NCBI GenBank assembly: GCA_041662725.1
Contig: JBAZRX010000001.1
Location: forward strand, 85-64,084
Length of the DNA stretch: 64,000 bases
Source of the DNA: Minisyncoccota bacterium
GTDB taxonomy: Bacteria; Patescibacteriota; Minisyncoccia; Phycocordibacterales; PALSA-1337
Reading direction: 5' to 3'
Of this stretch, positions 11,199 to 60,797 are shown piece after piece. The translations under genes and the position numbers were made by a program. The notes under the pieces were generated by a model. That model had not been told where the DNA came from. It saw only the letters and a list, made by a program, of their open reading frames with translations, and did no database searches. Positions within the stretch are counted from its first letter, which is position 1. Every line of letters starts with the position of its first letter.

Positions 11199-11221
11199 TG
11201 CTAAGTCTCTGCAAATGTATG

Positions 11222-15292: not shown

Positions 15293-15463
15293 GTCAAAAT
15301 CATAACTCTAAATTCACAAATCGACTAGACCGATCTGGGAATATTAATAATAATTTCTTTTGGCTTTATAACAGTGCAATTATATGTGCTTGCACTGCGC
15401 AGCTCCGATAGAAGCGAATGCGTGTGCTTGCACTGCGTAGCTCGCGATTAGCGAGCGAAGCAG

Positions 15464-15826
15464 TGGAGATGGGCGGAATCGAACCGCCGTGCAACTGATA
15501 TGATTCGAACGATTCTACGGTGGTAGAAAACTTTATATTTAATGCTCTTACTGAAAAGGTTTTCAAAACATAAGAGCACGATCTCTAGATTTCGGTAAAT
15601 AAGGTGAGAAGTCCTATTTACCTACATTCAAGTTATAACACTCGGTCCTCGAGTTAGAATCCCCCGAGGCGAGCGCGCCCTTTAAACAAAGGCGAATGCA
15701 AAGTCCTTTTGTCCGAAATACGGAGAAACGGTTGTTTTAGCATTTAGAATTTCCATCAGATTTACGAGTTAATGGTGCTCGCACCGCACGAACGAACATG
15801 ATCGATTGTCTATGCCGATCATCCCC
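15464..15826 (-). ncRNA. ssrA: tmRNA (ssrA)
   Basis: rc starts GGGGATG... and ends ...GGCGGTTCGATTCCGCCCATCTCCA (tRNA-like T-arm plus acceptor pairing with the 5' GGGGATG). ~363 nt. Lies immediately downstream of smpB on the same strand. Candidate tag ORF GCT AAA ACA ACC GTT TCT CCG TAT TTC GGA CAA AAG GAC TTT GCA TTC GCC TTT GTT TAA (AKTTVSPYFGQKDFAFAFV*). Confidence 0.75.
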
Positions 15827-24334: not shown

Positions 24335-24425
24335 AATTTAATAATTAAACAATTGCACAATTTAACAATCCCACAATTGAATAGATACAAGTTGTTTTAA
24401 TTGTCATATTGTAGAATTGTTTAAT
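24319..24425. repeat. ACAATT-family hairpin repeat A1 (arms of tandem 8-bp nnACAATT units; contains a 24-bp internal direct duplication)
   Basis: 'ttaaacaattgcacaattta' x2 ... loop ... 'ttaattgtcatattgtagaattgtttaat'. The right arm encodes the last 7 codons of adk (LNNSTI*). Confidence 0.8.
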
Positions 24426-29505: not shown

Positions 29506-30060
29506 CTATTTCTTCACTTCCTCCCTCTTCAACGGTAATCCTAAATGTTCCAAGAAAGCCAATGTGGTCTTCTTATCTTTTGAAGTAGTAACTATGGTAA
29601 TTGCAAATCCAAAAACGTTTTTCAAATCTTCATCAGATGTTTCTGGAAAAATAGTATGCTCTTTGATACCAAGAGTATAATTACCCATAGCATCAACTGA
29701 ACCACGTGATAATCCACGGAAGTCCTTCGTACGAGGTAAGGCTACATGAACAAGACGATCTAAAAACTCATTCATTCGGCGACCACGAATAGTAATGATA
29801 TAACCAATAGGGTCACCTGTACGTGTCTTGAATGACGCAATAGCTTTCTTTGTAGCACGTACAGCTGGCTTTTGACCTGTAATCTTGGCCAATCTGTCAG
29901 CAATAAGTTCTATTTTGTTCTTATCTTTAACTGATCCAAATCCATTAGAAATAACCACTTTAACTAAACGTGGTGCTTGCATTGGATTCTTAAGATTAAG
30001 TGGGCCTTTTAGAGCCTCAAATGCATTTTTACTTAATTCATTTACAGTTGTGTATGACAT
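29506..30060 (-). CDS. rplE: 50S ribosomal protein L5
   Basis: 184 aa L5 consensus. A 211-nt spacer separates it from rpsN. Confidence 0.9.
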   Translation of the reverse strand: MSYTTVNELSKNAFEALKGPLNLKNPMQAPRLVKVVISNGFGSVKDKNKIELIADRLAKITGQKPAVRATKKAIASFKTRTGDPIGYIITIRGRRMNEFLDRLVHVALPRTKDFRGLSRGSVDAMGNYTLGIKEHTIFPETSDEDLKNVFGFAITIVTTSKDKKTTLAFLEHLGLPLKREEVKK

Positions 30061-30065
30061 GGTGG

Positions 30066-30206
30066 TTAATTAAACAATTCTACGATATAACAATTAGATA
30101 ATTACACAATTCTACAATATGACAATCAAATAGCTATAAATTGTGTTAATTGTTTAATTGTCATATTGTAGAATTGTCATATTGTTTAATTGTTTAATTT
30201 TTTAAT
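30066..30206. repeat. ACAATT-family hairpin repeat A2 (largest; ~60-bp arms of 8-bp units nnAATTGT)
   Basis: Left 'ttaattaaacaattctacgatataacaattagataattacacaattctacaatatgacaat', loop 'caaatagctata', right 'aaattgtgttaattgtttaattgtcatattgtagaattgtcatattgtttaattgtttaatt'. Confidence 0.85.
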
Positions 30207-30426
30207 TTTTTTCTGCTAATTTAACTTTTGAAGCACTAAACGGCATTTCTCTAACAACTGTCTGACCTTTTTGTCCTTGCTTCCTAGCACGTTCATGCTT
30301 TTTCACTGTATTCATGCCCTCAATAACAATCTTATTACTACGTGGAAAAGCCCTAACAACCTTGCCGGTTTTACCCTTATCGTCTCCAGATAATATTATG
30401 ACTGTATCTCCTTTTTTGATATGCAT
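30202..30426 (-). CDS. rplX: 50S ribosomal protein L24
   Basis: 'MHIKKGDTVIILSGDDKGKTGKVVRAF...' KOW motif. Confidence 0.85.
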   Translation of the reverse strand: MHIKKGDTVIILSGDDKGKTGKVVRAFPRSNKIVIEGMNTVKKHERARKQGQKGQTVVREMPFSASKVKLAEKN

Positions 30427-30435
30427 GATGGTTTA

Positions 30436-30478
30436 TTTAACAATTCTACAATATAACAATTAAACAATTACAATTAAA
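30436..30478. repeat. ACAATT-family single-arm tandem array A3
   Basis: 'aacaattctacaatataacaattaaacaattacaatt'. Confidence 0.7.
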
Positions 30479-31350: not shown

Positions 31351-31404
31351 TATTCGTAGATTTGTATATTTGTAGCTCATTCGCATAATTCGTAAATTCG
31401 TAGT
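31351..31404. promoter_or_regulatory. ACGAAT-family motif B1 upstream of rpmC
   Basis: 'tattcgtagatttgtatatttgtagctcattcgcataattcgtaaattcgtagttt' shares the ~40-nt core with 44700..44746 and 52450..52488. Confidence 0.6.
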
Positions 31405-31830
31405 TTATATTCTAGCAACTATTCTTGATTTAACTGGTAATTTAGTTCCAGCCTTACGAAGTGCTTCACTAGCTATCTCCTGATCAACACCATCAATTTC
31501 AAACATAATACGACCTGGTTTAACTTCAGCGATAAAACCGACTGGATCACCTTTACCTTTACCCATCTTTACTTCAGCTGGCTTCTGAGTATAAGGATGA
31601 TCAGGAAAAATACGAACCCAGACTTTACCAGATTTTGTAGCATAACGTGCCATAACTTTACGTGCAGATTCAATCTGATTAGAAGTAATGCGGGCATAAT
31701 TAACAGCCTTCAATCCATATGAACCAAAAGATACTTTTATACCTCGTGTATCAGCATGAGCAGCCTCCTTGACCGGATGCATACGCATTGTGAACCACTT
31801 TCGATGTTTTACTTTTTTTGGAAATAACAT
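31405..31830 (-). CDS. rplP: 50S ribosomal protein L16
   Basis: 141 aa L16. Confidence 0.9.
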
Positions 31831-34424: not shown

Positions 34425-34729
34425 TAGAGCTTGGTAAATATGTTCTTTCATAACACTTGGTTGTAATTCAAATAATTGCACAATATGACAATTTAACAAT
34501 TAAGCTTGTTTCTAGCAAAACCCCACCACACTCATGTTCTAGAGCATTTCGCAGGCGTCGGGGAAATGTAATCCGCATACCTACGACACGACGCCGAGAA
34601 TAGACGGCCTTGCGAGTCTTTCGTTATTCGAGCAAGGCCGATCGTGCTCTAGAACATGAGTGTGGTGGGGTTTTGCTTAGAGATGGCGATCTTGCGAGTG
34701 TTATGAAAGAACATATTTACCAAGCTCTA
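34425..34729. repeat. 305-bp nested palindromic element (MITE-like or structured regulatory RNA/DNA)
   Basis: Outer perfect 33-bp IR (34425..34457 vs 34697..34729). Inner perfect 32-bp IR (34515..34546 vs 34645..34676). GC-rich core with further short IRs (ggccttgc/gcaaggcc). Contains an ACAATT-family arm at 34462..34505. Confidence 0.85.
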
Positions 34730-40284: not shown

Positions 40285-40289
40285 GAAAA

Positions 40290-40378
40290 TTTAACAATTA
40301 CACAATTAGACAATTTAACAATTGAGACGCCGTGCTTTAATTGTTCAATTGTGTAATTGTTAAATTGTAGAATTACTA
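40290..40378. repeat. ACAATT-family hairpin repeat A5
   Basis: 'aacaattacacaattagacaatttaacaattg' – loop 'agacgccgtgcttt' – 'aattgttcaattgtgtaattgttaaattg'. Confidence 0.8.
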
Positions 40379-41902
40379 TTTTACATACGTCACAATCTTA
40401 TCCCCTGCTCTCAATCCTGAAATAATTTCAACCATACCATCTGAACCTTTAAGACCAACTTCTACAGGTATTGATACAAAACTTTTACCATCAGATCCAA
40501 GAAGACGCACATTTTTTGTTCCAGAAACATCAATAATAGTTCTTGTAGGAACAGTAATCACGTTACTGCGTTCACGAGTCAGTATATCTAAGTTAGCGGT
40601 CATGCCAGAACGAATACGCTCATCTTTCTGTAAAAAATGTAAAGTAACTTTATAAGTAGGTACGCCTTCCAATATTGTTTCAGCCGGGTCCATAGTAACT
40701 GCTACTGCCGGAAAATCCACATTCTGACCATAAGCATCCAAAGTAGTAGAAGCATAATTACCAATAACAATCTTAGCAATATCAGCTTCTGGAACATAAG
40801 CTTCTATTTTATATACATCATCACTTTGAACTCCATACACAATCTTACCTGCCTGAACAAATTCACCCACACTAGGATCTGCACGAGTAATAATGCCGCT
40901 AATAGGAGAAACTATTCTATCTTTTTCATATTCTGCTTTATATGCTGCTACCAGAGCGGCTTGTGCCGCAATAGTTTGAGCAGATGACCCCGTCTTTCTT
41001 AAAATAAAATTGCTATCAGCTTGTTCATACGCTGACAAAGCATTTTCCAAACCAGTTTTCGCACTAGTAATTGAAGCTATAGCTTGATTCGTTAATGTAA
41101 GGCCTGAGTTTATTGATGAAACATAAGTATCAATAGTAGCCTGAGTTAAACCAGAATTACCTAGATTTAGATTATTAACAATAGTAGAAAGGCTACTCAT
41201 AAAATCTCTCACCACATTTACATACATATCTGCTTTTGAAATAAGAATATTTATATTATCTGTTGATGTTACAGCATCAATATCTGCTTTCCACTTAACT
41301 AAAGTTTCAGCTACTGAAATACGTGACATGTTAATTGTATTTTTTTCAGTTTGAGACTGAGTACGTACTTTTATTTCAGGGTTAGCACTTTGAGGACTAT
41401 CAAATAATGAATCGGCATAGTTTGTAATAGCACTTTGTGCCTGTACATAAGCCGTTCTAGAAGCATCAAAAGCTTCTTGTTTAGCATTCGCAAGAGAAAC
41501 TTTAGCTGTATTAACCTTTGATTGTTCCACTGCAAGTTCTTGTGAATTCAGATTGCGAGATAAATCATCCAACTTAGCTTGTGCTGAAGCAAGATTAGCA
41601 GCATCACCAGAACTGTTAAGCCCAGCAATCAGCGAACCTTTTTCTATTTTATCCCCAACTTTGACATTAATAGTTTTAATAATTCCACCTTTTTCAAAAG
41701 CCAAATCCGCCTTACCAACTGGAGATATTTTACCAGTAACACTAACTTTTTCTGTAATATTACCAACAGTAGCTACAGCGAATTCTATATTAACAGCAGG
41801 ATTTCTATTATAAAAAATAAATACTAGTACAATCGCAAGTATTACTACAAAAATAAAAACATATTTGTTTTTAATATAATGCTTAAAAAAAGATCTTTTC
41901 AT
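40376..41902 (-). CDS. efflux periplasmic adaptor (HlyD/MacA-like) protein
   Basis: N-terminal TM, long coiled-coil region, beta-barrel/lipoyl-like C-terminus. Listed ORF extends to 41962 across a GC-rich palindrome; start placed at 'MKRSFFKHY'. Confidence 0.65.
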   Translation of the reverse strand: MKRSFFKHYIKNKYVFIFVVILAIVLVFIFYNRNPAVNIEFAVATVGNITEKVSVTGKISPVGKADLAFEKGGIIKTINVKVGDKIEKGSLIAGLNSSGDAANLASAQAKLDDLSRNLNSQELAVEQSKVNTAKVSLANAKQEAFDASRTAYVQAQSAITNYADSLFDSPQSANPEIKVRTQSQTEKNTINMSRISVAETLVKWKADIDAVTSTDNINILISKADMYVNVVRDFMSSLSTIVNNLNLGNSGLTQATIDTYVSSINSGLTLTNQAIASITSAKTGLENALSAYEQADSNFILRKTGSSAQTIAAQAALVAAYKAEYEKDRIVSPISGIITRADPSVGEFVQAGKIVYGVQSDDVYKIEAYVPEADIAKIVIGNYASTTLDAYGQNVDFPAVAVTMDPAETILEGVPTYKVTLHFLQKDERIRSGMTANLDILTRERSNVITVPTRTIIDVSGTKNVRLLGSDGKSFVSIPVEVGLKGSDGMVEIISGLRAGDKIVTYVK

Positions 41903-43172: not shown

Positions 43173-43182
43173 AATATTTAAT

Positions 43183-43269
43183 ATTCAACAATTTAACAAT
43201 TCCACAATTTAACAATCAAAACACCGTGTTCTAATTGTTAAATTGTCATATTGTTGAATTGTTAAATTA
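43183..43269. repeat. ACAATT-family hairpin repeat A6 (tuf–rpsJ spacer)
   Basis: 'caacaatttaacaattccacaatttaacaat' – loop 'caaaacaccgtgttc' – 'taattgttaaattgtcatattgttgaattgttaaatt'. Confidence 0.8.
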
Positions 43270-44457
43270 CTACGCGATCACTTTTGTTACAACACCAGCA
43301 CCCACAGTCTTTCCTCCTTCACGAACAGCAAATCTCTGTTTATCTTCAAGAGCAACTGGAGCAACGAGCTTTACTTTGAAAGTAATAGTATCTCCTGGCA
43401 TAACCATCTCAACCTTTTCAGGAAGAGTTACTTCACCAGTAACATCAGTAGTACGAATATAAAACTGAGGCTTATAACCTGTAAAGAATGGAGTGTGACG
43501 ACCACCTTCTTCCTTCTTCAAAACGTAAACTTCTGACTCAAATTCTGTATGAGGTTTGACAGACCCTGTCTTGGCAAGAACCTGACCTCTTGAAACATCA
43601 TCTTTAGCTGTACCACGAAGAAGAACTCCGGCGTTATCTCCAGCCATTCCCTCTTTGAGAGATTTATTAAACATTTCAATACCTGTAACAGTAGTCTTGG
43701 TTGTATCCTTGAAACCTACAATTTCAACTTCCTCACCAACCTTGATCATACCGCGTTCAATACGACCAGTAACCACAGTTCCACGACCTTCAATAGAGAA
43801 GATATCCTCAATAGGCATAAGGAAAGGCTTATCAACCTCACGAACTGGAGCTGGAATATAAGTATCAAGTGCGTTCATGAGCTCATCAATCTTTGTTGAC
43901 CATGTAGCATCACCATTCAAAGCATTTGAGGCTGAACCACGAATAATAGGAACATTTTTACCATCAAACTTGTTCTTCGTAAGAAGTTCGCGAACTTCCT
44001 CTTCAACAAGATCAATAAGATCTGTCTCAGGAACGAGATCACACTTGTTCAAGAAGACTACAATCTTTGGAACACCCACTTGGTAAGCCAAAAGAACGTG
44101 CTCACGTGTTTGTGGCATAACACCATCAGTTGCAGAAACGACGAGAATAGCTCCGTCCATTTGAGCGGCACCTGTAATCATGTTCTTAATAAAGTCGGCG
44201 TGTCCTGGACAGTCAATGTGAGCATAGTGACGAGTAGGAGTTTCGTACTCTACGTGAGACAAAGAAATTGTAACTGTCTTTGTAGCATCACGAACAGTAC
44301 CACCCTTTGTGATATCAGCGTATGCTTTAACATTTGCTAAACCTTTCTTGGATTGAACGGCCAAGATAGCTGCTGTCAAAGTAGACTTCCCGTGGTCAAT
44401 GTGACCAATGGTTCCAACGTTGATATGCGGCTTGTTGCGATTAAATTCTGCTGCCAT
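43270..44457 (-). CDS. tuf: elongation factor Tu
   Basis: 395 aa; 'GHIDHGKST', 'DCPGHADF', 'NKCD' GTPase motifs. Confidence 0.95.
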
Positions 44458-44635
44458 GTGATTATTGATTTAGTGCCCTGATTTTTTGGATCTTATCGTT
44501 AACGGTTGTGTGCAAACGCTAGCGATAGAGATCCAAAAAAAAGGGATAAATTATTAATAGTTAATAAATAATAATGAACTAAAGACTAACAAAACGCAGG
44601 GTCTGCGCTTGTATCATAAGATAGCATAACGCAAT

Positions 44636-44746
44636 AAAATTCGCAAATTTTTTTCTACGAATCTACGAATATGCGAATGAAACACAGCATCTGCGATTAT
44701 TCGTAGATTCGTAGCCCATTCGCATAATTCGTAGATTCGTAGTTTA
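44636..44746. promoter_or_regulatory. ACGAAT-family hairpin B2 (upstream of tuf, immediately downstream of the giant gene)
   Basis: Left arm 'ctacgaatctacgaatatgcgaatg', right arm 'cattcgcataattcgtagattcgtag'; 8-bp ctACGAAT units. Confidence 0.75.
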
Positions 44747-47700
44747 CTTAGCAAAATATTCTCCTAAAGAATCCCAAACTGAAGCTCTTCCACTAGTACT
44801 ATTATTTACAGAAGTTGGTGCTGAATTAGGGGTTGGTGTAGGAGTTGGTGTAGGTTTTATTAAATTATAATATTCTGCTGTATTCATCAGAACGCCTTTT
44901 ATATAACTAATATCATAACCAGAATTTACCCAGTAATCTAAACCAGCTTGATCTGGATTACGTTTAAGTAAAGTTACGTACAACTGAGTTATATCATTAA
45001 TTCTTGCTTGTTTTGGAGAAATTGTTGATGTTGGGGTTGGGGTTAAAGTTGGTGTAGGTGTTGGTGAATAATACGGTTTTGTTGTTGGTGAAGGAGAAGG
45101 AGTAATTACTGAAGATTGTGCCTTCACAGTTGTTGTTTGACTTGAAACTATTGATGAAACAGGAATAACCGCAACAGCCTGTGAACCATCGGTGAATTTA
45201 ACTATAAGTTTACCGCCATACCATGTTGTTATTGACTCTTTTTGACCATAGAGCATATAGACTTGAGAACTATATGATGCTTGACCAAGAGGCAAAACGT
45301 CATAATACTTATCATTAAATTGAGTACTTGAGCCCTGTATAACAATAACAAGTGGATATGGCTTTCTACCATAAGAATCAAGTTCGGCACTTGTTGACCA
45401 CGCTTCACCATTATTATCACTCAAAACAGTTATTGATTTTATACTTTTTCCACCAGCACTATTGATTTTCATTTCCATACGCCATCCCCAATCAGATGGA
45501 TCTTTACTTATATACCCACGTCCAGAACTAAATTGATCCCAAGCACCAGCACGATCTTCATTGGCGCTATACACAACAGCTTTAATAGTGCCATCAAATG
45601 TAGGGTAATTCGATGACGGTGTTTGTGTAGGGGTAGGATTTAAAGAAACAGCAGAAGTTTTAATTGTAGACTGTGTTACTTTTGCATATGTTGGTGGAAG
45701 ACTAAGCTTCTCTTCGTCTGATGCTATAACTGTTTTACCATCTTTTACTGAAAGAAGTTCGGCCTTAGCAACAACAGTTTGGACAACACTGGTATTATTT
45801 TTAAATATCACATCAATAAAACCGTCAGGAGCAACTTTATTTTTTACACCACAAGCAAGACCGCCGTTTACATTAGTTGGAGCTGAAGCGACAACACCTG
45901 TAGGACAGACGATTGAAAGAATCCAATCAAACTCATCAACTTGACTGTTTGTAGAATAACGTACACGAATACCTTCATTAGTTCCGATTATTTTTGAAGA
46001 AAGAGTAAAAACAGAAGAAGAAACTGGGGCTGTAATAGAAGATTGTGCCGAATTAGAAACTTTAACTTTTATAGTATTACTTTTTATAGCTTCATTTTTA
46101 GCATTTAAGGACATTAAATATAAATTGTAATCACCATCAACAATAGAAGTAGTTGGCTCATTCCACCAACCATCTGGATGCACGCCACGACCTATTGTGC
46201 TAGGAATTGTAAAACTGAGTTTAGAACCATCGTATAGTGAATATCCTGTTAATGTACGAACATCATGAGAATACCCCACTGACCATGTTTTTGAGCCATC
46301 AACTGTTGTAAGAATAATATTTCCTGTTCTACCAGCACCTGTTGCATAAATTGTTAATAAAGATCCTACTGAAACAGGCTGAGGTGCAACTCGGCTTATT
46401 TCTGGTTGTACTCCACTTACTGGAGGAATAATACTAAAAAAATCATTACTATCATCACAAATATCTGTTCCTGCTTTACATACCCTTGCCTTATATTGAC
46501 CAACAGAAATTTGACTAGGATACGTAGAAAATCCGAGTGACTGTGCATTTTTATTTGATGGTTTTAAATTTAACTGGATAGGACTTGGTATAACTTGACC
46601 AGATGAATTTAGTAACTTTACATCAACTGATTGGGTAGGATCTATGGAATCCCATATAACACTCAATGATTCGCCCTGTGCTATTTTTTCTCCTCCATTA
46701 GGTGAAACAATAACAACACTACCCCTATTAGGAGCTGGAACGTCAACTTTAGCCTTAACCGCTTTTGCATTACATGATGCATTTATTTTTTTTAAAGTAA
46801 AAGGTCCAGCAACGCCAGTTGAAGGAACTCCGATTGATGTTTGAAATGCTTTTACTGCGGCTTTGGTATCAGAACCAAAATATCCCTTCAGAGCATTACC
46901 TAAAGAAATACTCGGAATATCAAAACCGTTATTGATCAACCATGTTTGCAAAGCTACGACTTCTGATCCAGAACTACCTACAGAAAGGCCAGAGTTTTCT
47001 AAAGCAAAGATAGCTGAGAAGTTGTAACACAAACTTATTCCTGAAGAAGCTTTGAATTTAGAGTTAGTTGAATCAACTGAACTATCCGCCACAGTACACA
47101 CATATCCGGTAGGACATCCTTCAGGTTGAACAGCTAGAGGTGTACAAACATAACCTTCAGGACATGAAAAAGGAAGTGTACAAATATATCCAACAGGACA
47201 TAAAACAGAAGATTGCTCTAGTGCATCCCCTACAGCGGCAACAAGTCTTGTATCTCTTGGTACAAGACTAACTGGACTAGAACTCGGCATTGGTGTTGGA
47301 GAAGATGAAGATGTTGGAGAAGTTGAAGGAGTCGGTGTAGGAGATGGAGTTGAAGAAGGTGTAGGAGATGGAGTTGGAGTAATAATCGGTGTTGGGGTAG
47401 GAGTAGAAGCTGGAGATGGCGTTGGTGTTGAAGAAGGAGCTACTGAAGGAGTCGGCGAAGAATAATAACTTGAAGTTGGAGATGGTGAAGGTGTATATGT
47501 TGGTGAGTAAGTAGATGTTGGGGAAGGAGTATATGTTGGGGAATAAGAAGAAGTTGGTATAGGAGTAGAAGTTGGTCTAGGTGTATATGTTGGTGAGTAA
47601 GTAGAAGTCGGAACAGGAGTTGCTGAAGATACTGGTCTAGGAGTAGCTGAGTAAGCAGGAATTGGAGTTGTTGCTGGAACATAAGCAGGACTTGGAGAGA

Positions 47701-49063
47701 TAGAACGCATACACCTATCACCTATCTTAGTGTAACCAGGAGGACAAGATGCTGGTGAAGGTGAAGCTGCTGGTGCTGATGAATACGTAGGAGCAGAAGA
47801 AACCGCTGGAGTAGCTTGTGGTGTACTAACTGGTAACGTTGTTGGTGAAGAGCCTGTAATTAACGAAGTGGCAAATCTTAAAGCGCTTGAGTATGTATTA
47901 CGTATTCTTCCGAAGAAACCAGTTGATGCTGCTGGAGTTGGGGCTGGGGTGGAAACTACTGGACGATTCAATGTAGTAAAAACACCTTCTCTTGTTAACA
48001 CACCAGACCAAGTATAGAAATTATCTAAACCAGTAGTTTGATTAGTAACAGTTTTTCCCCCTACAGTGTAATCAATATCCTTAACTGCCATAAGCAAGTT
48101 AAGGGAAGGATTGTTTGGAGTGAAAGGAAGTGCTTGGTTTGATGATACCTGACCATTCAAAACAACTGTATATGTACCACCATCCCCGATAGTTGCATCA
48201 GACGGAGTCACATATATATTCATAATACTTGCTGTGTATGCATTCTGTTTGTTCCCTGCTGTCGATGTTACATAGGCACCATTTGTCTGTGTTGATGATG
48301 CAAATACAAGAGTGAAGTCTTTAAGGGTAGGTTTAACCATCACTCCTCCAACTGCTTTAGCTTTAAGAGTAATAGTTCCGAATAGAGAGCTTGAGGCTAC
48401 ATCTTTTACACCTGGTGCTGAAAAAATATCAGCACTTACGAATGACCAGTCGACGCGAGGATATGTTGTATTTGACAAAGTACTATTACAAAGACCATTT
48501 CTAGGATAATCAAGACTTAATTCCTTTGTATTTGTCTTAAAATCCATTAAATCTCTAATTTCAACTCTAGCCACCCTTCCACCAACGTTAAAAGTAATAT
48601 CTCTAATTGCCATAAAGAGATTTTGGGCTGAACAAATATCAGGATTATTAGACATAACAGCACCGTAAATTGTTACTGTGTATTCTTCTCCATCATTAAT
48701 CGTAGGTTTATTTGGTGTAACAACAATAGATCTGATGACCCCAGAATAGATAGAATTTGAAGAATCAATACGTTTAAAAGGTTTGTATATTTCCGTACTG
48801 GAAGCAAAAATTAAACTAAAATCGCTAGCCTTTGGCTTAACTATCGTTCCTCCAACCGCTTTAACTTTAAGAGTAATAGTTCCGGTTAGAGAGCTTGAAG
48901 CTACATCTTTTACACCTGGTGTTGAAGCAATATCGGAACTTACGAAGGACCAAGAGGCACGAGGAGAGGTAGCCTGCGCCTCAACTTTCGTTATTTCACC
49001 AGAGAAAACCGCAAACGATAATACTGTTAGCGAAATAAAGAAAGAAAATAATATTTTTTTCAT
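44744..49063 (-). CDS. giant secreted multidomain protein (PT-rich linkers, PG_binding_1-like and DUF4214-like domains)
   Basis: 1439 aa. Signal peptide. Tandem duplicated ~55-aa module ([36 protein letters not shown] / [37 protein letters not shown]). '[12 protein letters not shown]' repeats. Three 'CPxGYxCT' repeats. '[16 protein letters not shown]...[14 protein letters not shown]...GVAGPFT' peptidoglycan-binding-like. C-terminal '[22 protein letters not shown]' DUF4214-like. Confidence 0.8.
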
Positions 49064-49204: not shown

Positions 49205-49240
49205 TAATACAAAAAGAACCTGTGTAAAACAAGTTCTTTT
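49205..49240 (-). terminator. rho-independent terminator after fusA
   Basis: Minus-strand 'AAGAAC-ttgttttacacag-GTTCTT' followed by a U-run. Confidence 0.55.
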
Positions 49241-49275
49241 TGTATTTATATTTTTACTTACTAAATAAAACTTTA

Positions 49276-51420
49276 TTACTTCCTTTTTTCTATTATCTCT
49301 TGAGCCACATTACTTGGTACAACATCATAATGATCAAATTCCATCATGGCACTTCCTTGACCTGAAGTCATAGAACGAAGTTGGGTTGTATAACCGAACA
49401 TCTCTGACAGTGGAACTTTAGCAATAATAGAAATAACTTGGCCTTTTGGTTGACTACCTTCAATCTGACCACGCTTGGAAGCGATAGAACCATTGATATC
49501 ACCCATATATTTCTCTGGAGCCACAACTTCAAGTTTCATTATAGGTTCCAGAATAACAGGTTTAGCACGCTTAGCGGCATCTTGGAAAGCTTGAGAAGCG
49601 GCAATCTTGTAGGCAATTTCAGAAGAGTCAACATCGTGGTATGAACCGAATGTGAGTTCACAAGAAACATTAACCATCTTATAACCAGCTACAATACCGC
49701 GATCCATGGCTTCATGGACACCCTTTTCAACCGCAGGAATAAATTCATTTGGAATTACACCACCTTTGATTGAGTTTATAAACTCAAAATCATCATAGCG
49801 TTTGACATATTTAGGAATCTTTTCCCCTTCTGGCCATGGTTCCATCGGCTTAAGAGTTAGACGAACGTGACCATATTGACCTTTACCACCAGTCTGCTTG
49901 ATATATTTATGTTCAGCTTCAGCAGTACTCTGAATAGTCTCACGATATGCTACTTGTGGTTCACCAACATTAGCTTCCACGCTAAATTCTCGCTTCATAC
50001 GATCAACCATGATTTCCAAATGAAGTTCGCCCATTCCAGAAATAATAGTTTCTCCAGTTTCTTGATTGGATGAAACTCTAAAGGTTGGATCTTCGTTACC
50101 AAGTTTATGAAGTGCTATACCCATTTTTTCTTGATCAGCTTTAGTCTTTGGTTCAATACGCAAAGAAACGACCGGCTCCATAAATTTGATAGTTTCTAGA
50201 ACGATAGGATTTTTTTCATCACAGAAAGTATTGGAAGTAAGAGCATCTTTCAGACCTACCGCAGCGGCGATTTCTCCGGAAAAGACTTTCTTTACTTCTT
50301 CACGGGCATCAGCTTGCAAACGCACAATACGGCCTAAACGCTCTCTTTTTCCAGTAGATGAATTGTAAATATATGTTCCAGCTTCAATAGTTCCTGAATA
50401 AACTCTAAAGAATGTTAATTGTCCAACGAATGGATCGTTCTGTAACTTGAAAGCAAGGGCACAGAAAGGTTCTTCATCTGAAGGATGGCGAAGAATTTCT
50501 TCTCCTGTATTTGGGTCAATACCTTTGACAGCTTCAATATCTAGAGGAGATGGTAAATAATCAACAACCGCATCAAGAATCAATTGAATTCCAACGTTTT
50601 TCAAAGCTGAACCAGTGAAAACTGGAAATATTTCATTTTTAATAACAGCTACACGAGCAATCTTTTTCAAAACATCAACAGAAATTTCTTTACCTTCTAA
50701 ATATTGTTGCATAGCCGTATCATCATGTTCAACTATCTTTTCTACCAACTCTGCATGATACTTCTTGGCATCTTCCAAAAGTTCAGCTGGAATTTCTTTT
50801 TCAACAATATTAACTCCTTTTTCTCCTTCAAAATAATAAGCTTTCATGCGCATAAGATCTACAACACCTACATGGTCACCCTCTGTTCCTATAGGGATTT
50901 GGAATCTAACTGCGCGCTTATTTAATCTTTCAACAATAGATTTGAATGATTTTTCAAAAGAAGCACCCATACGATCCATTTTGTTGATAAAACAAAGACG
51001 TGGCACTTTACTTTCATCAGCGTAACGCCAATTTGTTTCTGATTGAGGTTCTACGCCAGCCACACCGTCAAATACCACAACGGCACCATCTAGAACACGT
51101 AGAGAACGTTTCACTTCCACTGTAAAATCGATGTGTCCTGGAGTATCTATAACGTTAAAACGAGTCTTTTTGGAAAGATCTGTTTTTGGCATATAAGTTG
51201 GATTCCAGAAACAAGTAATGGCCGCAGCTGTAATAGTAATGCCACGCTCCCTTTCCTGTTCCATCCAGTCTGTAGTGGTCTCACCTTCGTGAACTTCTCC
51301 AATTTTATGGATCATTCCAGTATAAAATAGAATACGTTCTGACGTAGTTGTCTTGCCCGCATCAATGTGAGCAATAACTCCAAAGTTTCTAACTTGTGCT
51401 AATGGATAATCGCGATTCAT
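49276..51420 (-). CDS. fusA: elongation factor G
   Basis: 714 aa; 'AHIDAGKTT', 'DTPGHIDF', domain IV/V consensus. Confidence 0.95.
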   Translation of the reverse strand: MNRDYPLAQVRNFGVIAHIDAGKTTTSERILFYTGMIHKIGEVHEGETTTDWMEQERERGITITAAAITCFWNPTYMPKTDLSKKTRFNVIDTPGHIDFTVEVKRSLRVLDGAVVVFDGVAGVEPQSETNWRYADESKVPRLCFINKMDRMGASFEKSFKSIVERLNKRAVRFQIPIGTEGDHVGVVDLMRMKAYYFEGEKGVNIVEKEIPAELLEDAKKYHAELVEKIVEHDDTAMQQYLEGKEISVDVLKKIARVAVIKNEIFPVFTGSALKNVGIQLILDAVVDYLPSPLDIEAVKGIDPNTGEEILRHPSDEEPFCALAFKLQNDPFVGQLTFFRVYSGTIEAGTYIYNSSTGKRERLGRIVRLQADAREEVKKVFSGEIAAAVGLKDALTSNTFCDEKNPIVLETIKFMEPVVSLRIEPKTKADQEKMGIALHKLGNEDPTFRVSSNQETGETIISGMGELHLEIMVDRMKREFSVEANVGEPQVAYRETIQSTAEAEHKYIKQTGGKGQYGHVRLTLKPMEPWPEGEKIPKYVKRYDDFEFINSIKGGVIPNEFIPAVEKGVHEAMDRGIVAGYKMVNVSCELTFGSYHDVDSSEIAYKIAASQAFQDAAKRAKPVILEPIMKLEVVAPEKYMGDINGSIASKRGQIEGSQPKGQVISIIAKVPLSEMFGYTTQLRSMTSGQGSAMMEFDHYDVVPSNVAQEIIEKRK

Positions 51421-51943: not shown

Positions 51944-52360
51944 TTATTTAGCAGCTTTCGGCCTTTTATTACCATATTGACTACGACCTTTTCTCCTTGC
52001 TTCAACACCTGCACAGTCCAAAACTCCACGAACAATAGAATAACGTAATCCTACATCCTTAACACGACCTCCACGAAGAAGGACTACTGCGTGTTCTTGC
52101 AAGTTATGACCCATTCCTGGAACATAAGCTGTTACTTCCATACCATTAGTAAGTCTTACACGGGCAATCTTACGAATAGCCGAGTTAGGTTTCTTTGGAG
52201 TTTTTGTAGTAACTTTAGTGCAAACTCCGCGTTTAAATGGAGCCGGAAAGAATATTGGACGATTTTTGATCGTATTGAAAGTACGAGTCAAAGCTATAGA
52301 TTTAGATTTTCTCTTAAAAAGTTTTCGATTCTTTTTGGTTAATTGATTGATTGTTGGCAT
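51944..52360 (-). CDS. rpsL: 30S ribosomal protein S12
   Basis: '[19 protein letters not shown]...' S12. Confidence 0.9.
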
Positions 52361-52380
52361 ATTTTAATAATATTTTTTAT

Positions 52381-52488
52381 AACGAATCTACAAATTATGC
52401 GAATGACTACAAATCTACAAATATTTGCAAACATTATGTTTCATTTGCATATTCGTAGCCCATTCGCATAATTCGTTAATTCGTAGTT
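52381..52488. promoter_or_regulatory. ACGAAT-family hairpin B3 upstream of rpsL (likely str-operon promoter region)
   Basis: 'acgaatctacaaattatgcgaatg' ... 'cattcgcataattcgttaattcgtag'. Core 'attcgtagcccattcgcataattcgt' identical to B2. Confidence 0.75.
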
Positions 52489-57800: not shown

Positions 57801-60797
57801 TTATAGAGTAGGTGTAATTTCAGGAGTAGGTTCTAAAACCGGTTCTGGAGTAGGTGTTAAAAGAGGTGTGAGTTCTGGTGTTGGAGTAAGAGTTACTTCA
57901 GGAGTAATCGTAGGTTCAGTTGGAGTAGCTGTTGGTGTTGGAAAAACTATTGGTTCTGGAGTTACGATAGGTTCTGTAGAAGTAGCGATGAACTCAGTTG
58001 AAGTGGCTACAGAAGGTGTTGAAGTTGAGGTTGGAGTTACTGTTGGAACTGGAGTCGCTTCTGGCGTAGGCGTGGATATTGGTGAAGCAATTGAAGGTGT
58101 AGGAGTTGGAGTTAATGAAGTTAAAGAGATTGTACTACTAGCGTTAATTAATAATGCTTTAATTTGGTCTTCATTAAGACAGGTCTCCCCAACACACAAC
58201 ATATCTGTTTTCACCCTCGTAAACACCCCACTCACCGCGGTAATCGTATTCATCGCAAGGTTCCCTATTGATTTGATAAGATCAAGAACAGCAGTAGCGA
58301 TCTTTTCAATAAATGACTGTGAATTGATGTAATCTGTAGTACTGGCTGTAGTGGTAGAAACAATTAAACTCCAGTTTTCAAGGTTTAAGAGACGACTATT
58401 TAAAGAAAGTGTAGTACTTCCTACATTAGTGATGAAATCATCAATTTTAGTGTTTAAGCCAGAGAATGTCAGAGCTTGTTCTTCAGCTGTAGTACTGGCT
58501 AAAGCATCTAGATTAGCTCTTAGAGTGTTTAATGATCTATTAAAGCAAGTAACACTGTTAGAACAGATGTCTCCTAAGATGTTCAGATTACCTTCTTCAT
58601 CTATGTTGAGTATAGAATCTCCTTTTTGATTCTGTAGAAAGAGAGCTTGTGGTACAGCGTCACTTAATGCTTCAGTGAATCTGAAGTTGTTGGCAAAGAT
58701 TAAGTCACCTGTGTATGTATTATCTGCTCTAAAGCCTCCTATGACTCTTATATTACCTATGATGGTAGAAGTAGCTAATGGAGTGTTTATAGTTAGAGTA
58801 CCATCGGAGTTGATTTGGAAGACGGTGGTGGTGGCAGAAGCTGTGGAGGTTGAAACAGCAAAGATTGGAGTTGTCTGGTTTGACGAACCTGCTACAGAGA
58901 GTTTGGTGTATGGAGAAGTGGTACCGATGCCGACGTTGCCTCTATCAAAAGTAAGAACATCAGGGTATGAAGTACCATTAGTCTGGTCAAATGTCCATCT
59001 AACAACACCTGCTGTAACAGATTGTTTAAGTTTCAAATTGTATGCCATATCTAATGTGTTATATCCCCACATTTGACTTACTATTTGATCACCACCATTT
59101 TTGGTATCAATATGAAGGTATGCTTGTGGTGAAGTTGTTCCAATACCAACTTTACTAGATGTAATTCTCATAACTTCACTATTGTTAGCATAAAAAGTTG
59201 GGAAATATCCTGAATGGAAAGAACCTATTCTTACCTCACCTGTTAAATTATTTCCGGTAATTCCACCAAATACAACACCGCTTGTTCCAGTCATTTTTAA
59301 TCCAATATCATCACTAGAATTTAATGGTTTTAAAGTAATTATAGGTAAGTCATCTGTAGATCCTTGAATAAACAACATGCCACTTTTTGTTCCTGTCCCT
59401 AAAGCAATAGGACCACCAAATGAACTTGTAGTTGTTCCTGCTGTGTAGATGGCGTAATTTTTTGTTGTACCCTTAGATAATTGAGGTATATAAACTCCGT
59501 AGTTATTCACAACAGTTCCACTACCTGTTGGATCAGCAGAGTAGGAACCATACATATTTGTTACTGTTCCATAATTAACCGATGGAACATTCACAAAACC
59601 ATACATTGTATCCATTGTTCCAGACGAACTGTAATTTGCTCCATTTTGAAAAGCAGCATAGTGTCCATAGTCAGCAACACCTCCGACAAATATTCTTCCA
59701 TCAAAAGAGTTATAAGAAATTGTACCGCTTCTGACTACATATGAACTATCAGAAAAAGCATGCCCATTTCCACTAACAGAATCATTAACTGATCTACTGA
59801 TTAGTATTTGTGAATCAACACTGTTATTATTTACTCCACTACCCACATGTAATATCGCTAGCGGATTCACTGTCCCAATCCCGACATTTCCAGCAGAAGT
59901 AATTGCCAAAGCCCTATAACTTGCATTTGTGGCTAAAGCATCAGAAGTAGTACCGATATAAAATTGACCGGAATTAGATTCTATAAACCAATGTTTTTGA
60001 TTAGTTGAAGCATCTGTATCAGAAAGTGTAATCTTTGGCGCTGTAGCTCCGGCAACTTGAAGGAGTGAAGTTGGGCTCGTCGTCCCCACCCCCACATTCC
60101 CTCCTCCTGTCGCTAAATAAGTAGAACCTGTTGTGGTTAGTTGAGTAGTTGAAGCATATCCAAGAGTTGTAAGTCCTGTCACATTCAAAGTAGATGAGAA
60201 AACACCTGTCGTTCCAGAGAATGAAGAGCTAGTGATAGCAGAACCAGAGATGTCACCTCCTGTAATAGATGGGCTAGTTATGGCACCATTGTTTGACACA
60301 GAAGAAACTGAAGCACCTGCGCTTCTAGCACTGCTATCTGCTTGTCTAGAGATACGGTCATATATAGCTTGCAGATCTGAAGAAGAGACATTCGCTGTTA
60401 GATTAGACTTAACAGTGTTTAACTGTGATTGAAGTGCTTGTACTTTAGCTTGAAGGTTAGCTAACAGTTGTTGATTATTTGATGTTGATTGTTGAGCAGG
60501 TGTTGTTTGTTCTACAGATGATGTTGGTGAATCTACATTATTGGTAGGATAATCGTTATCAAGTGTTTTGGTAGTTTGAACAGTATTATCTATATTACTG
60601 TTCTCTAATAACTCTGTTGGTGCTTCTGGTGTTTCTTCTACAGGACAAGTGAATACTAAACACTTAACACTATTCCAGATGCTAGCTAGAAGACTAAGGG
60701 GATTGTAATTAAAGGACGCTTCAGAGAATGAAGGTAGAACAAGAATAGCTACTATAAGTACGATTAAGATTCGCTTGCTGTAGGTGTTTAAATTCAT
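57801..60797 (-). CDS. giant secreted repeat protein with tail-fibre-like NVGIGTTSP repeats and PT-rich C-terminus
   Basis: 998 aa. Signal peptide. S/T/G-rich beta-repeat body with 'GNVGIGTVNPLAILHV', 'SKVGIGTTSPQAYLHI', 'GNVGIGTTSPYTKLSV'. C-terminal 'PTPTPSIASPISTPTPEATPVPTVTPTSTSTP...' tail. Confidence 0.7.
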   Translation of the reverse strand: MNLNTYSKRILIVLIVAILVLPSFSEASFNYNPLSLLASIWNSVKCLVFTCPVEETPEAPTELLENSNIDNTVQTTKTLDNDYPTNNVDSPTSSVEQTTPAQQSTSNNQQLLANLQAKVQALQSQLNTVKSNLTANVSSSDLQAIYDRISRQADSSARSAGASVSSVSNNGAITSPSITGGDISGSAITSSSFSGTTGVFSSTLNVTGLTTLGYASTTQLTTTGSTYLATGGGNVGVGTTSPTSLLQVAGATAPKITLSDTDASTNQKHWFIESNSGQFYIGTTSDALATNASYRALAITSAGNVGIGTVNPLAILHVGSGVNNNSVDSQILISRSVNDSVSGNGHAFSDSSYVVRSGTISYNSFDGRIFVGGVADYGHYAAFQNGANYSSSGTMDTMYGFVNVPSVNYGTVTNMYGSYSADPTGSGTVVNNYGVYIPQLSKGTTKNYAIYTAGTTTSSFGGPIALGTGTKSGMLFIQGSTDDLPIITLKPLNSSDDIGLKMTGTSGVVFGGITGNNLTGEVRIGSFHSGYFPTFYANNSEVMRITSSKVGIGTTSPQAYLHIDTKNGGDQIVSQMWGYNTLDMAYNLKLKQSVTAGVVRWTFDQTNGTSYPDVLTFDRGNVGIGTTSPYTKLSVAGSSNQTTPIFAVSTSTASATTTVFQINSDGTLTINTPLATSTIIGNIRVIGGFRADNTYTGDLIFANNFRFTEALSDAVPQALFLQNQKGDSILNIDEEGNLNILGDICSNSVTCFNRSLNTLRANLDALASTTAEEQALTFSGLNTKIDDFITNVGSTTLSLNSRLLNLENWSLIVSTTTASTTDYINSQSFIEKIATAVLDLIKSIGNLAMNTITAVSGVFTRVKTDMLCVGETCLNEDQIKALLINASSTISLTSLTPTPTPSIASPISTPTPEATPVPTVTPTSTSTPSVATSTEFIATSTEPIVTPEPIVFPTPTATPTEPTITPEVTLTPTPELTPLLTPTPEPVLEPTPEITPTL

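What the first reader, a model, noticed from the sequence alone, without database searches (positions are those of the whole stretch)
44744..49063. Giant protein architecture: duplicated N-terminal modules, CTD-like YSPTYTPSP repeats, Cys-repeat knots, peptidoglycan-binding and DUF4214-like domains
Two consecutive ~190-aa modules share a near-identical ~55-aa core. They are followed by a long P/T/S/Y low-complexity tract with '[12 protein letters not shown]' heptad-like repeats (reminiscent of RNA Pol II CTD and of mucin/O-glycosylation linkers), three 'CPxGYxCT' repeats, a PG_binding_1-like segment, an Ig-like region and a C-terminal DUF4214-like motif. This suggests a cell-wall-anchored adhesin or S-layer-associated protein, possibly mediating host attachment of an episymbiont.
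Basis: partly seen in the sequence, partly recalled or inferred. Interest (0 to 1): 0.5.

Follow-up and report, generated by a model that had tools for sequence, protein, structure and literature searches.

The report
Modular wall-binding surface protein gene
This is a 1,439-residue secreted protein of a Paceibacteria (CPR) bacterium that binds peptidoglycan and has no enzyme domain. It is ordinary in kind, but its family always sits between the translation genes fusA and tuf while swapping domains freely.

Summary
ORF 44744-49063 (minus strand) encodes a 1,439-aa protein. It has a signal peptide, two tandem ~165-aa modules (49% identical, E 9e-43; 54-aa core 76%), a 234-aa P/T/S linker with three YSPTYTPxP repeats, and three CPxGYxC repeats. 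PG_binding_1 scores 50.8 bits (cut-off 23). A Kre9/KNH-like Ig domain, three unannotated beta-rich regions and a borderline DUF4214-like segment follow. The resemblance to the RNA polymerase II CTD is only compositional.

NCBI already names it "peptidoglycan-binding protein [Candidatus Paceibacterota]". Secreted PG-binding/Ig-like proteins are already reported as top-expressed in host-attached Paceibacteria (PMC10936435). It is therefore a new member of a known kind.

Three details were not found described in the libraries searched:
- The N-terminal module defines a small unannotated family: 89 cluster representatives among 1.84 billion, usually the C-terminal domain of ~600-aa PG-binding proteins.
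- A conserved C-terminal tail (S-[IV]-W-D-A-x-x-x-Y-F) marks the subfamily.
- The gene interrupts rpsL-rpsG-fusA-[gene]-tuf-rpsJ. All 10 family loci with a readable flank lie in that slot.

Best reading: a non-enzymatic surface protein held on the wall, with the N-terminal modules pointing outward. Adhesin versus coat is unresolved.

The parts
44744..49063 (-). Whole gene, 1,439 codons plus stop
   Evidence: An identical protein is in NCBI/JGI as 'MAG: peptidoglycan-binding protein [Candidatus Paceibacterota bacterium]' (P0001).
48971..49063 (-). Signal peptide, aa 1-31 (MKK, 17 hydrophobic residues, then VEAQA|T)
   Evidence: Read from the sequence. Relatives have the same [VA]xAQ|T end. No predictor was run, so this is inference.
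48464..48967 (-). Module copy 1 (aa 33-200), beta-sandwich
47966..48463 (-). Module copy 2 (aa 201-366)
47264..47965 (-). P/T/S-rich linker (aa 367-600). Includes one degenerate Cys loop (aa 440-451) and the YSPTYTPxP tandem repeats (47483-47620).
47096..47200 (-). Three CPxGYxC repeats (aa 622-656)
   Evidence: The same motif is present in P0002, P0004, P0005, P0015, P0029, P0096, P0097 and P0099.
46784..46972 (-). PG_binding_1 domain (aa 698-760), bracketed by Cys679 and Cys764
   Evidence: 50.8 bits against 23. (matches 1LBU at E 4.7e-5 and SleB 6TCI).
46418..46738 (-). D1, Kre9/KNH-like Ig domain (aa 776-882)
   Evidence: With D2, about 69% identical to P0097.
46046..46417 (-). D2, unannotated domain (aa 883-1006), shared with P0097 and P0098
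   Evidence: (no Pfam hit)
45659..46045 (-). D3, orphan region (aa 1007-1135) with a Cys1053/Cys1071 pair
   Evidence: no significant relative found
45128..45616 (-). D4, unannotated beta-sandwich (aa 1150-1312), shared with P0005, P0096, P0099 and the L007 protein
44858..45037 (-). DUF4214-like segment (aa 1343-1402), flanked by short P/T linkers
44747..44791 (-). C-terminal tail (aa 1425-1439, [15 protein letters not shown]), conserved in the subfamily
   Evidence: No NCBIfam model matches it.
44655..44742 (-). Long hairpin starting just after the stop codon. Built from a repeat found three times in the window.
   Evidence: -47.8 kcal/mol, z -8.1; family D8
49206..49246 (-). 18-bp hairpin after the fusA stop, terminator-like, ahead of the 212-nt spacer before the gene
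   Evidence: -22 kcal/mol, z -6.0
49276..51420 (-). fusA (EF-G), upstream neighbour
   Evidence: TIGR00484, 1048 bits
43270..44457 (-). tuf (EF-Tu), downstream neighbour, followed by rpsJ and rplC

Best explanation
The gene encodes a Sec-exported, non-enzymatic, multi-domain protein that stays on the bacterium's own cell surface.

Shown:
- It has a bona fide PG_binding_1 domain in the middle of the chain.
- No catalytic domain was detected anywhere.
- It has sixteen cysteines arranged as eight local pairs.
- It has three P/T/S-rich spacers.
- It has beta-sandwich domains with no specific structural relative.
- It belongs to a family whose members recombine the same cassettes: CPxGYxC repeats, PG_binding_1, the module, Kre9-like Ig, D2, D4, DUF4214-like and the tail.
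- In every case that could be read, a family member lies between fusA and tuf.

Inferred:
- PG_binding_1 holds the protein non-covalently on the cell's own murein.
- The C-terminal half lies nearest the envelope: Ig-like stalk, DUF4214-like segment, then the short amphipathic tail. The tail may rest on the outer leaflet of the membrane or dock to a partner.
- The 234-residue P/T/S linker works as an extended spacer, possibly glycosylated, that projects the two N-terminal modules outward as the exposed, ligand- or host-facing tip.
- Sitting inside the str operon region gives strong, growth-coupled expression. The contrast between conserved flanks and shuffled content suggests rapid diversification of an exposed surface protein.
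For: - Domains: PG_binding_1 scores 50.8 bits against 23 and matches the PG-binding domains of 1LBU and SleB. Pfam and NCBIfam, run on the whole protein and on eight segments, show no catalytic family.
- Export and disulfides: signal peptide read from the sequence. Eight local Cys pairs and no LPXTG. CPR genomes are enriched in MdbA-like oxidoreductase and VKOR, which make extracytoplasmic disulfides (PMC6744442).
- Module family: 89 representatives at E<=1e-3 among 1.84 billion. In 59 collected proteins the module is the last domain. In full-length members of that type, PG_binding_1 is usually near the N-terminus. So the module sits at the end far from the wall anchor, as it does here in mirror image.
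- Cassette sharing.
- Tail: the strict motif hits 3 of 1,493 background ORFs, all three being family members. It hits 0 of 59 proteins where the module is terminal and 9 of 37 others.
- Slot: the order rpsL-rpsG-fusA-[gene]-tuf-rpsJ-rplC is confirmed. Ten family loci lie in the slot and none with a readable flank lies elsewhere. In a set seeded only on fusA, 6 of 25 close relatives have a PG-binding protein among the first two ORFs after fusA. The rate among other ORFs of the same loci is 5 of 1,229 (odds ratio 21, p 2.8e-6). Pfam confirms five of these loci.
- Literature: signal-peptide proteins with PG-binding, Ig-like and PKD domains are among the five most highly expressed in host-attached Paceibacteria (PMC10936435). 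DUF4214 is regarded as a likely surface-anchoring domain in segmented filamentous bacteria (PMC12780176). It occurs in a protein that binds O-antigen (bioRxiv 10.64898/2026.09.02.748959).
Against: - There are no expression, localisation or binding data for this protein.
- The orientation model (C-terminus near the envelope, N-terminus outward) is inference from domain order only.
- The tail's hydrophobic moment (0.53) is only slightly above the background mean of 0.46 +/- 0.14. An amphipathic membrane anchor is therefore weakly supported, and the tail is too short to span a membrane.
- Hairpins after fusA and after the gene, plus 212- and 286-nt spacers, suggest a separate transcription unit. 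High expression cannot simply be assumed from the operon.
- Both structure models rest on shallow alignments (8 and 4 sequences) and have moderate confidence.
- The enrichment test uses related genomes, so the loci are not independent, and it uses a home-made PG-binding profile.
- DUF4214 membership is borderline.
Confidence: 0.7

Rival explanations
1. Structural coat or S-layer-like protein. The protein is an abundant component of a proteinaceous surface layer tethered to the wall, and has no specific ligand. The modules would mediate self-association rather than adhesion.
For: - It is encoded in a highly transcribed genomic neighbourhood.
- It has wall-binding plus Ig-like domains.
- Related proteins are among the most highly expressed secreted proteins (PMC10936435).
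- S-layer genes are known to evolve by domain swaps (bioRxiv 10.1101/2025.04.02.646754).
Against: - No SLH or other S-layer signature was found.
- Long flexible P/T/S linkers are unusual for lattice-forming proteins.
- Domain content differs greatly between close relatives, which fits a variable exposed protein better than a lattice under packing constraints.
Confidence: 0.3
2. Reversed polarity. PG_binding_1 grips the wall of a bacterial host. The protein would be fixed to its own cell by the C-terminal tail and the DUF4214-like segment.
For: - PMC10936435 proposes that PG-binding domains take part in host attachment.
- DUF4214 is suggested as a self-surface anchor in other bacteria.
- The tail is conserved.
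Against: - The hosts in PMC10936435 are methanogenic archaea. By general knowledge, not tested here, these lack murein, so a murein-binding domain there more plausibly binds the parasite's own wall.
- In this protein PG_binding_1 is in the middle of the chain, not at a tip.
- In the ~600-aa relatives it lies directly after the signal peptide, while the module is at the free end.
Confidence: 0.15
3. A peptidoglycan hydrolase, as the truncated JGI name 'peptidoglycan hydr...' implies.
For: PG_binding_1 is typically attached to lytic enzymes. There are weak NCBIfam hits to SleB and peptidoglycan hydrolase models.
Against: - All those hits cover only the PG-binding domain (aa 689-772) and score far below their cut-offs (32.6 against 236.5; 19.3 against 500).
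- No catalytic family was found in any segment.
- The only PDB matches are to PG-binding domains.
Confidence: 0.03
4. The YSPTYTPSP tract is a functional mimic of the RNA polymerase II C-terminal domain.
For: Only the shared residues Y, S, P and T.
Against: - The period is 6/12/18 residues, not 7.
- The tract is extracellular, after a signal peptide.
- Similar linkers occur in relatives.
Confidence: 0.01

Closest known systems
Highly expressed secreted PG-binding/Ig-like/PKD proteins of host-attached Paceibacteria (Kuroda et al., mBio 2024, PMC10936435)
   Same: Same bacterial class. They share a signal peptide, a PG-binding domain, Ig-like/PKD-type beta-sandwich domains and a proposed role at the cell surface.
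   Different: That paper calls them 'extracellular enzymes', whereas no enzyme domain is present here. It does not describe the fusA-tuf position, the module or the tail.
PG_binding_1 (PF01471) domain proteins such as Streptomyces Zn D-Ala-D-Ala carboxypeptidase (1LBU) and SleB (6TCI)
   Same: The three-helix PG-binding domain, matched by sequence above Pfam's threshold.
   Different: Those proteins carry a catalytic domain. This one has only binding and beta-sandwich domains plus linkers.
Modular wall-associated adhesins and S-layer proteins of monoderm bacteria
   Same: It appears to work like them: a Sec signal, a non-covalent wall-binding module, Ig-like stalk domains and an exposed distal domain. 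Their loci also evolve by domain swaps.
   Different: No SLH, CWB2, LysM or LPXTG signal. The wall-binding module is PG_binding_1, and the distal domains belong to unannotated families.
DUF4214 surface proteins (segmented filamentous bacteria; Psh of Pseudomonas putida)
   Same: It shares the core motif LYxxxLxRxPDxxGxxYW, in a secreted surface protein.
   Different: Only the first third of the domain matches, and the score is at the threshold. Psh is an RTX protein exported by a type I system. This protein is Sec-dependent.
Archaellum stator proteins ArlF/ArlG (FlaF/FlaG)
   Different: 16.3 bits against a cut-off of 110. This is a generic fold resemblance and not membership.

Membership tests
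PG_binding_1 (PF01471) | Match to the Pfam model above the gathering score over most of its length | tested here: met
   50.8 bits against 23, model positions 1-57 of 57, aa 698-760. PDB sequence matches are to PG-binding domains only.
PG_binding_1 (PF01471) | Actual binding to peptidoglycan | not testable with these tools
   Needs a sacculus pull-down.
DUF4214 (PF13946) | Match above the gathering score (23.2 bits) over the 72-position model | tested here: inconclusive
   20.7 bits in the full protein and 24.9 bits in the isolated C-terminus. Only positions 24-46 match. 44% identity over 25 aa to a 63.6-bit DUF4214 in L031.
Kre9_KNH Ig-like (PF10342) | Match above the gathering score (24.6 bits) | tested here: not met
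   16.3 bits, E 0.017 for aa 776-882. Homology is supported only transitively, through a profile that also collects above-threshold Kre9_KNH domains in P0029 and L004.
Peptidoglycan hydrolases (SleB, NF052335/6) | Presence of a catalytic domain and a score above the equivalog cut-off | tested here: not met
   32.6 against 236.5 and 19.3 against 500. The matches cover only the PG-binding domain.
Sortase-anchored (LPXTG) surface proteins | C-terminal LPXTG motif, then a hydrophobic segment and a basic tail | tested here: not met
   No LPx[TSA]G anywhere. The C-terminus is [15 protein letters not shown], with no hydrophobic segment.
S-layer proteins with SLH or other known anchoring domains | An SLH, CWB2 or other curated S-layer domain | tested here: not met
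   None in Pfam or NCBIfam. Lattice formation itself is not testable here.
RNA polymerase II CTD-like heptad repeats | Tandem 7-residue YSPTSPS units in a nuclear or cytoplasmic protein | tested here: not met
   The period is 18/36/54 nt, which is 6/12/18 aa. The protein has a signal peptide.
Paceibacteria 'fusA-tuf slot' surface proteins (a family defined in this report) | Signal peptide, CPxGYxC repeats and/or PG_binding_1, a C-terminal S-[IV]-W-[DQS]-A tail, and a gene between fusA and tuf | tested here: met
   All four features are present. Nine further loci share them.
Diversity-generating retroelement targets | A near-identical template repeat elsewhere in the locus, plus a reverse transcriptase | tested here: not met
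   No second copy of any part of the gene elsewhere in the 64-kb window. The window was not scanned for a reverse transcriptase.

The most novel reading that the evidence does not exclude
In one clade of Paceibacteria (fusA at least ~77% identical), the space between fusA and tuf is a fixed 'expression site' for the cell's main exposed surface protein. The gene keeps its address, signal peptide, CPxGYxC/PG-binding anchor and a lineage-specific C-terminal S-I-W-D-A-x-x-x-Y-F tail. That tail would be a new anchoring or sorting signal. The gene exchanges its exposed beta-sandwich cassettes quickly, driven by host or phage pressure. The N-terminal module and D4 would then be new host- or ligand-binding domain families.
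Probability: 0.35. Interest if true: 0.6.

Novelty: new member of a known kind. Interest (0 to 1): 0.4.

Why it matters
How CPR/Patescibacteria build their envelope and attach to hosts is largely unknown, and most of their surface proteins have no annotation.

The protein itself adds little, because it is one more PG-binding surface protein that is already named in NCBI. The context gives usable handles:
- The fusA-tuf address gives an alignment-free way to find the fast-evolving surface protein in new Paceibacteria genomes.
- A short conserved C-terminal tail can be tested as an anchor or sorting signal.
- There are three recurrent unannotated domains (the module, D2, D4), plus one orphan region (D3) and the CPxGYxC repeat, that could be described as families.

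If the slot proteins are the same as the highly expressed proteins reported in host-attached Paceibacteria, they are the first candidates for host-specificity determinants in this class.

Tried and rejected
- The whole-protein homology search returned only 8 hits, because low-complexity words filled the candidate list. Segment queries were needed.
- The search for related loci with the module alignment failed because no stretch was conserved enough. fusA was used instead.
- My impression by eye that D3 recurs in P0096, P0008, P0029, P0030 and P0053 was not borne out. The profile search found no second member and pairwise E-values were 0.14-0.29. D3 is reported as an orphan region.
- I thought D2 looked IPT/TIG-like, but Pfam gives no hit. 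The TIG hit recorded for P0097 could not be placed on D2. That reading is my own and the hit position was not looked up, so no claim is made.
- The tail matched no NCBIfam model. Its amphipathicity is only marginally above background, so the membrane-anchor idea is kept as inference only.
- The tail-seeded metagenome scan gave 22 pattern hits, of which 17 were chance matches inside unrelated frames.
- A diversity-generating retroelement was considered and not supported.
- The CTD mimic, hydrolase and sortase-substrate readings were rejected (see the membership tests).
- Three literature searches on Patescibacteria/CPR surface proteins turned up no description of the module, the tail or the fusA-tuf placement. 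No search was made specifically for those features.
Full report
**1. What is there**

The identical protein is already in NCBI and JGI as [quoted passage not shown] on a 75-kb contig. The organism is therefore a member of the CPR/Patescibacteria. The closest fusA genes found belong to Taylorbacteria, Zambryskibacteria, Nomurabacteria and Kaiserbacteria MAGs.

**2. Anatomy, N- to C-terminus**

- **aa 1-31:** a typical Sec signal peptide (MKK, 17 hydrophobic residues, VEAQA|T). This is read from the sequence and no predictor was run.
- **aa 33-200 and 201-366:** two tandem copies of one module. They are 49% identical over 154 aa, E 9e-43. The core is 41/54 identical. At DNA level there are 170 nt at 78% identity, 504 nt apart.
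- **aa 367-600:** a linker of 24% P, 24% S and 19% T. It contains three YSPTYTP[RS]P units whose DNA period is 18/36/54 nt.
- **aa 622-656:** three CPxGYxC units, with a degenerate fourth at aa 440-451.
- **aa 698-760:** PG_binding_1, 50.8 bits against a cut-off of 23, covering the full model. It is the only part of the protein with sequence relatives in the PDB: 1LBU at E 4.7e-5, and SleB.
- **aa 776-882 (D1):** a Kre9/KNH-like Ig domain. It is sub-threshold here (16.3 bits against 24.6). A profile seeded on it links it to above-threshold Kre9_KNH domains in relatives.
- **aa 883-1006 (D2):** no Pfam hit, but shared with P0097 and P0098.
- **aa 1007-1135 (D3):** no detectable relative.
- **aa 1150-1312 (D4):** shared with P0005, P0096, P0099 and the L007 protein.
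- **aa 1343-1402:** a DUF4214-like segment between short P/T linkers. It scores 20.7 bits in the full protein and 24.9 bits in isolation, against a cut-off of 23.2, and matches 23 of 72 model positions. It is 44% identical over 25 aa to a 63.6-bit DUF4214 in L031.
- **aa 1425-1439:** the tail [15 protein letters not shown].

The sixteen cysteines fall into eight local pairs: 144/192, 440/451, 622/628, 634/640, 650/656, 679/764, 862/869 and 1053/1071. There is no LPXTG motif. No catalytic family appears in Pfam or NCBIfam, either in the whole protein or in eight separate segments.

The reversed GC skew at 44-48 kb coincides with the P/T/S-rich coding region. The abundance of ACN, CCN and TCN codons on the coding strand is my reading of the cause.

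**3. The modules**

A profile search of 1.84 billion representatives finds only 89 proteins at E<=1e-3, of which 22 are at E<=1e-30. The family is therefore small, and Pfam does not annotate it.

In 59 of the collected proteins the module is the last domain, ending ...QTWGLDDFKTP... In full-length members of this type, PG_binding_1 is usually close to the signal peptide. In a minority, including this protein, P0002, P0013, P0025, P0028, P0029, P0030 and P0051, the module is internal or N-terminal. In both arrangements the module is at the end of the chain far from the wall-binding domain. This is the basis for proposing that it is the exposed tip.

**4. A cassette family with a common tail**

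The relatives found with three segment queries and the profile search reuse the same parts in different orders and numbers:

| Protein | Length | Domain order |
|---|---|---|
| P0029 | 1,489 aa | CPxGYxC, PG_binding_1, module, four D1, TIG, PKD, DUF4214-like, tail |
| P0097 | 642 aa | CPxGYxC, PG_binding_1, D1, D1, D2, TIG, tail |
| P0096 | 632 aa | PG_binding_1, CPxGYxC, D4, tail |
| P0005 | 939 aa | PG_binding_1, CPxGYxC, D4, PKD, tail |

Identity ranges from 69% (D1-D2 with P0097) down to 34-54% (D4).

Nearly all members that do not end in the module end in one short motif. It follows an S/T/N-rich stretch:
- NAAIWDAIREYFKSGGR
- NASIWDAIGEYFKIKRD
- NASIWSAVDDYFKGQR
- TGSIWDAVKNLF
- SASIWQAVSDWYTAH
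- [13 protein letters not shown] (this protein)

A strict pattern for this motif hits 3 of 1,493 ORFs in the window and in the loci held at that point. All three are family members. It hits 0 of 59 module-terminal proteins and 9 of 37 others. No NCBIfam model matches it.

The tail is too short to span a membrane. Its helical hydrophobic moment (0.53 here, 0.37-0.89 in relatives) is only modestly above the background of C-termini (0.46 +/- 0.14). Its role, whether in-plane membrane anchor, docking peptide or sorting signal, is therefore open.

**5. Genomic address**

NCBIfam equivalogs identify the neighbours as rpsL (51944-52360), rpsG, fusA (49276-51420), then the gene, tuf (43270-44457), rpsJ and rplC, all on the minus strand. 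The gene therefore interrupts the normally contiguous fusA-tuf pair of the str operon.

Two hairpins flank it:
- An 18-bp hairpin follows fusA (-22 kcal/mol, z -6.0).
- A ~40-bp hairpin starts just after the gene's stop codon (-47.8 kcal/mol, z -8.1).

The spacers are 212 and 286 nt. The gene may therefore be its own transcription unit.

The address is conserved. Loci were found in three independent ways.

(a) Starting from protein relatives:
- P0002 lies after rpsL-rpsG-fusA (L001).
- P0005 lies after a fusA fragment (L002).
- P0097 lies in fusA-[MNT/HepT pair]-P0097-tuf-rpsJ... (L083/L084).
- P0098 lies in fusA-396 aa-P0098-tuf (L086).
- P0099 lies in fusA-969-aa PG-binding/TIG protein-...-P0099 (L085).
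- P0008 lies in fusA-P0008-514-aa PG-binding protein-tuf (L088).
- P0004 lies directly before tuf (L087).

(b) Starting from the tail alone. A back-translated I-W-D-A-[IV]-x-E-Y-F pattern was scanned over metagenome contigs. Five of the 22 matches are true C-terminal tails. The three with a readable flank are L102, L103 (the same contig as L084) and L106, and each lies next to fusA and/or tuf.

(c) Starting from fusA alone, with 80 Patescibacteria loci. The fusA-to-tuf distance ranges from 114 bp to more than 6.7 kb.
- Among the 25 loci whose fusA is at least 70% identical and that have at least 1.5 kb downstream, 6 carry a PG-binding protein among the first two ORFs after fusA.
- Among the 43 more distant loci, none does.
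- Among all other ORFs of the same loci, 5 of 1,229 do (odds ratio 21, p 2.8e-6).
- Pfam's own model confirms PG_binding_1 in L005, L013, L023, L026 (two proteins) and L031.

Caveats: the genomes are related, so the loci are not independent events. The screen in (c) used a profile I built myself.

In total, ten distinct family loci are in the slot. No family member with a readable flank is elsewhere. Flanking genes are 77-92% identical to those of the window, while the slot proteins align over only 6-38% of the query. The picture is one of conserved flanks around fast-changing content.

**6. Mechanism proposed**

Shown: the protein is secreted-type, has a genuine murein-binding domain, has no enzyme domain, has local Cys pairs and has long P/T/S spacers. 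Its modular beta-sandwich content is shared by cassette exchange, and its address is fixed.

Inferred:
- The protein is retained non-covalently on the cell's own wall through PG_binding_1.
- The Cys pairs form disulfides. CPR genomes are enriched in MdbA-like oxidoreductase and VKOR (PMC6744442).
- The C-terminal DUF4214-like segment and the tail lie closest to the envelope. DUF4214 is thought to be a surface-anchoring domain in segmented filamentous bacteria (PMC12780176). It occurs in Psh, a protein that binds O-antigen (bioRxiv 10.64898/2026.09.02.748959).
- The 234-residue linker holds the two modules away from the wall.

Whether the exposed modules bind a host (adhesin) or each other (coat) cannot be decided here. 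The literature gives the nearest precedent. In Paceibacteria attached to methanogens, signal-peptide proteins with PG-binding, Ig-like and PKD domains are among the five most highly expressed, and were proposed to act in attachment (PMC10936435). Those hosts are archaea, which by general knowledge lack murein. That favours the reading that the PG-binding domain holds on to the bacterium's own wall.

**7. Comparison, novelty and score**

The kind is known: a wall-binding modular surface protein of Paceibacteria. The protein already carries a correct, if minimal, public name. The CTD analogy, a hydrolase role, sortase anchoring and a retroelement target were each tested and not met.

The following were not found described in the libraries searched:
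- the module family;
- D2 and D4 as recurrent cassettes;
- the CPxGYxC repeat as a family hallmark;
- the C-terminal tail;
- the conserved fusA-tuf address.

Pfam, NCBIfam and the PDB hold nothing for these. The literature searches targeted Patescibacteria surface proteins and DUF4214 in general, not these features specifically.

I rate the finding itself as a new member of a known kind, with interest 0.4. The locus-level hypothesis is that the slot is a fixed expression site for a fast-shuffling major surface protein carrying a new C-terminal signal. It is the most novel reading not excluded by the evidence. I give it a probability of about 0.35 and an interest of 0.6 if true.

Noticed in passing
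window 44655-44742, 52380-52486, 31352-31407: A repeat of about 48 nt, built from CTACGAAT-type octamers (ACTACGAATyTACGAATTATGCGAATGrGCTACrAAT), occurs at three intergenic sites. Pattern search gives 12 matches against 0.6 expected. At two sites it occurs as an inverted pair that should form a long hairpin. Folding was done only at 44655-44742, just after the surface-protein gene. The pairing at 52380-52486, upstream of rpsL, is read from the sequence. The repeat is absent from all but one of the 82 related loci held at that point. It looks like a genome-specific REP-like element or terminator.
   Followed up: partly
window 24309-24425, 30058-30198, 30424-30476, 34456-34504, 40286-40386, 43180-43280: A second family of intergenic palindromic repeats is built from ACAATTnn octamers. 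One copy fills the whole tuf-rpsJ spacer (43173-43269). Many gene junctions in this ribosomal-protein region therefore carry long hairpins with 8-nt periodicity. Further small families lie at 20076-20166/32527-32572 and at 55679-55739/57749-57809.
   Followed up: no
L003-L082 (80 fusA loci of Patescibacteria): The fusA-tuf linkage is often broken. In 45 of 68 loci with enough downstream sequence, tuf is more than 1 kb away or not found in the downstream sequence held (1.5-10 kb). What lies there is very diverse.
   Followed up: partly
L083 7038-7872, L084 1757-2603: A nucleotidyltransferase/HepT-like toxin-antitoxin pair (PF01909/PF18765 plus PF01934) sits between fusA and the surface-protein gene. 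The slot accepts mobile cargo as well.
   Followed up: no
L023 3572-5650; L013 12317-20806: Other proteins occupy the post-fusA position. One is a 692-aa protein combining PG_binding_1 with a plastocyanin/azurin-type copper-binding domain, which would be a wall-tethered cupredoxin. Another is a 2,829-aa protein with five fn3 domains, rhamnogalacturonan-lyase-like beta-sheet domains and two PG_binding_1 domains.
   Followed up: no
window 11221-11295: ARAGORN calls a tRNA-Ile with anticodon TAT. By my general knowledge, such a tRNA is uncommon in bacteria, which usually read AUA with a lysidine-modified CAT tRNA. Whether tilS is present was not checked.
   Followed up: no
window 15461-15826: A tmRNA with an unusually long tag peptide that does not end in the common ...LAA: AKTTVSPYFGQKDFAFAFV.
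   Followed up: no
window 1019-6004 and 57801-60797: Two more large envelope-type proteins. One is 1,661 aa with hydrophobic segments at both ends. The other is 998 aa with a signal-peptide-like N-terminus and a P/T/E-rich C-terminus (...TPTPELTPLLTPTPEPVLEPTPEITPTL). Neither has the CPxGYxC motif or the tail.
   Followed up: no
window 44001-48000: GC skew is positive here (+0.03 to +0.18), while neighbouring genes on the same strand are negative. The interval coincides with the P/T/S-rich coding sequence, which I take to be the cause rather than foreign origin. This was not tested further.
   Followed up: partly
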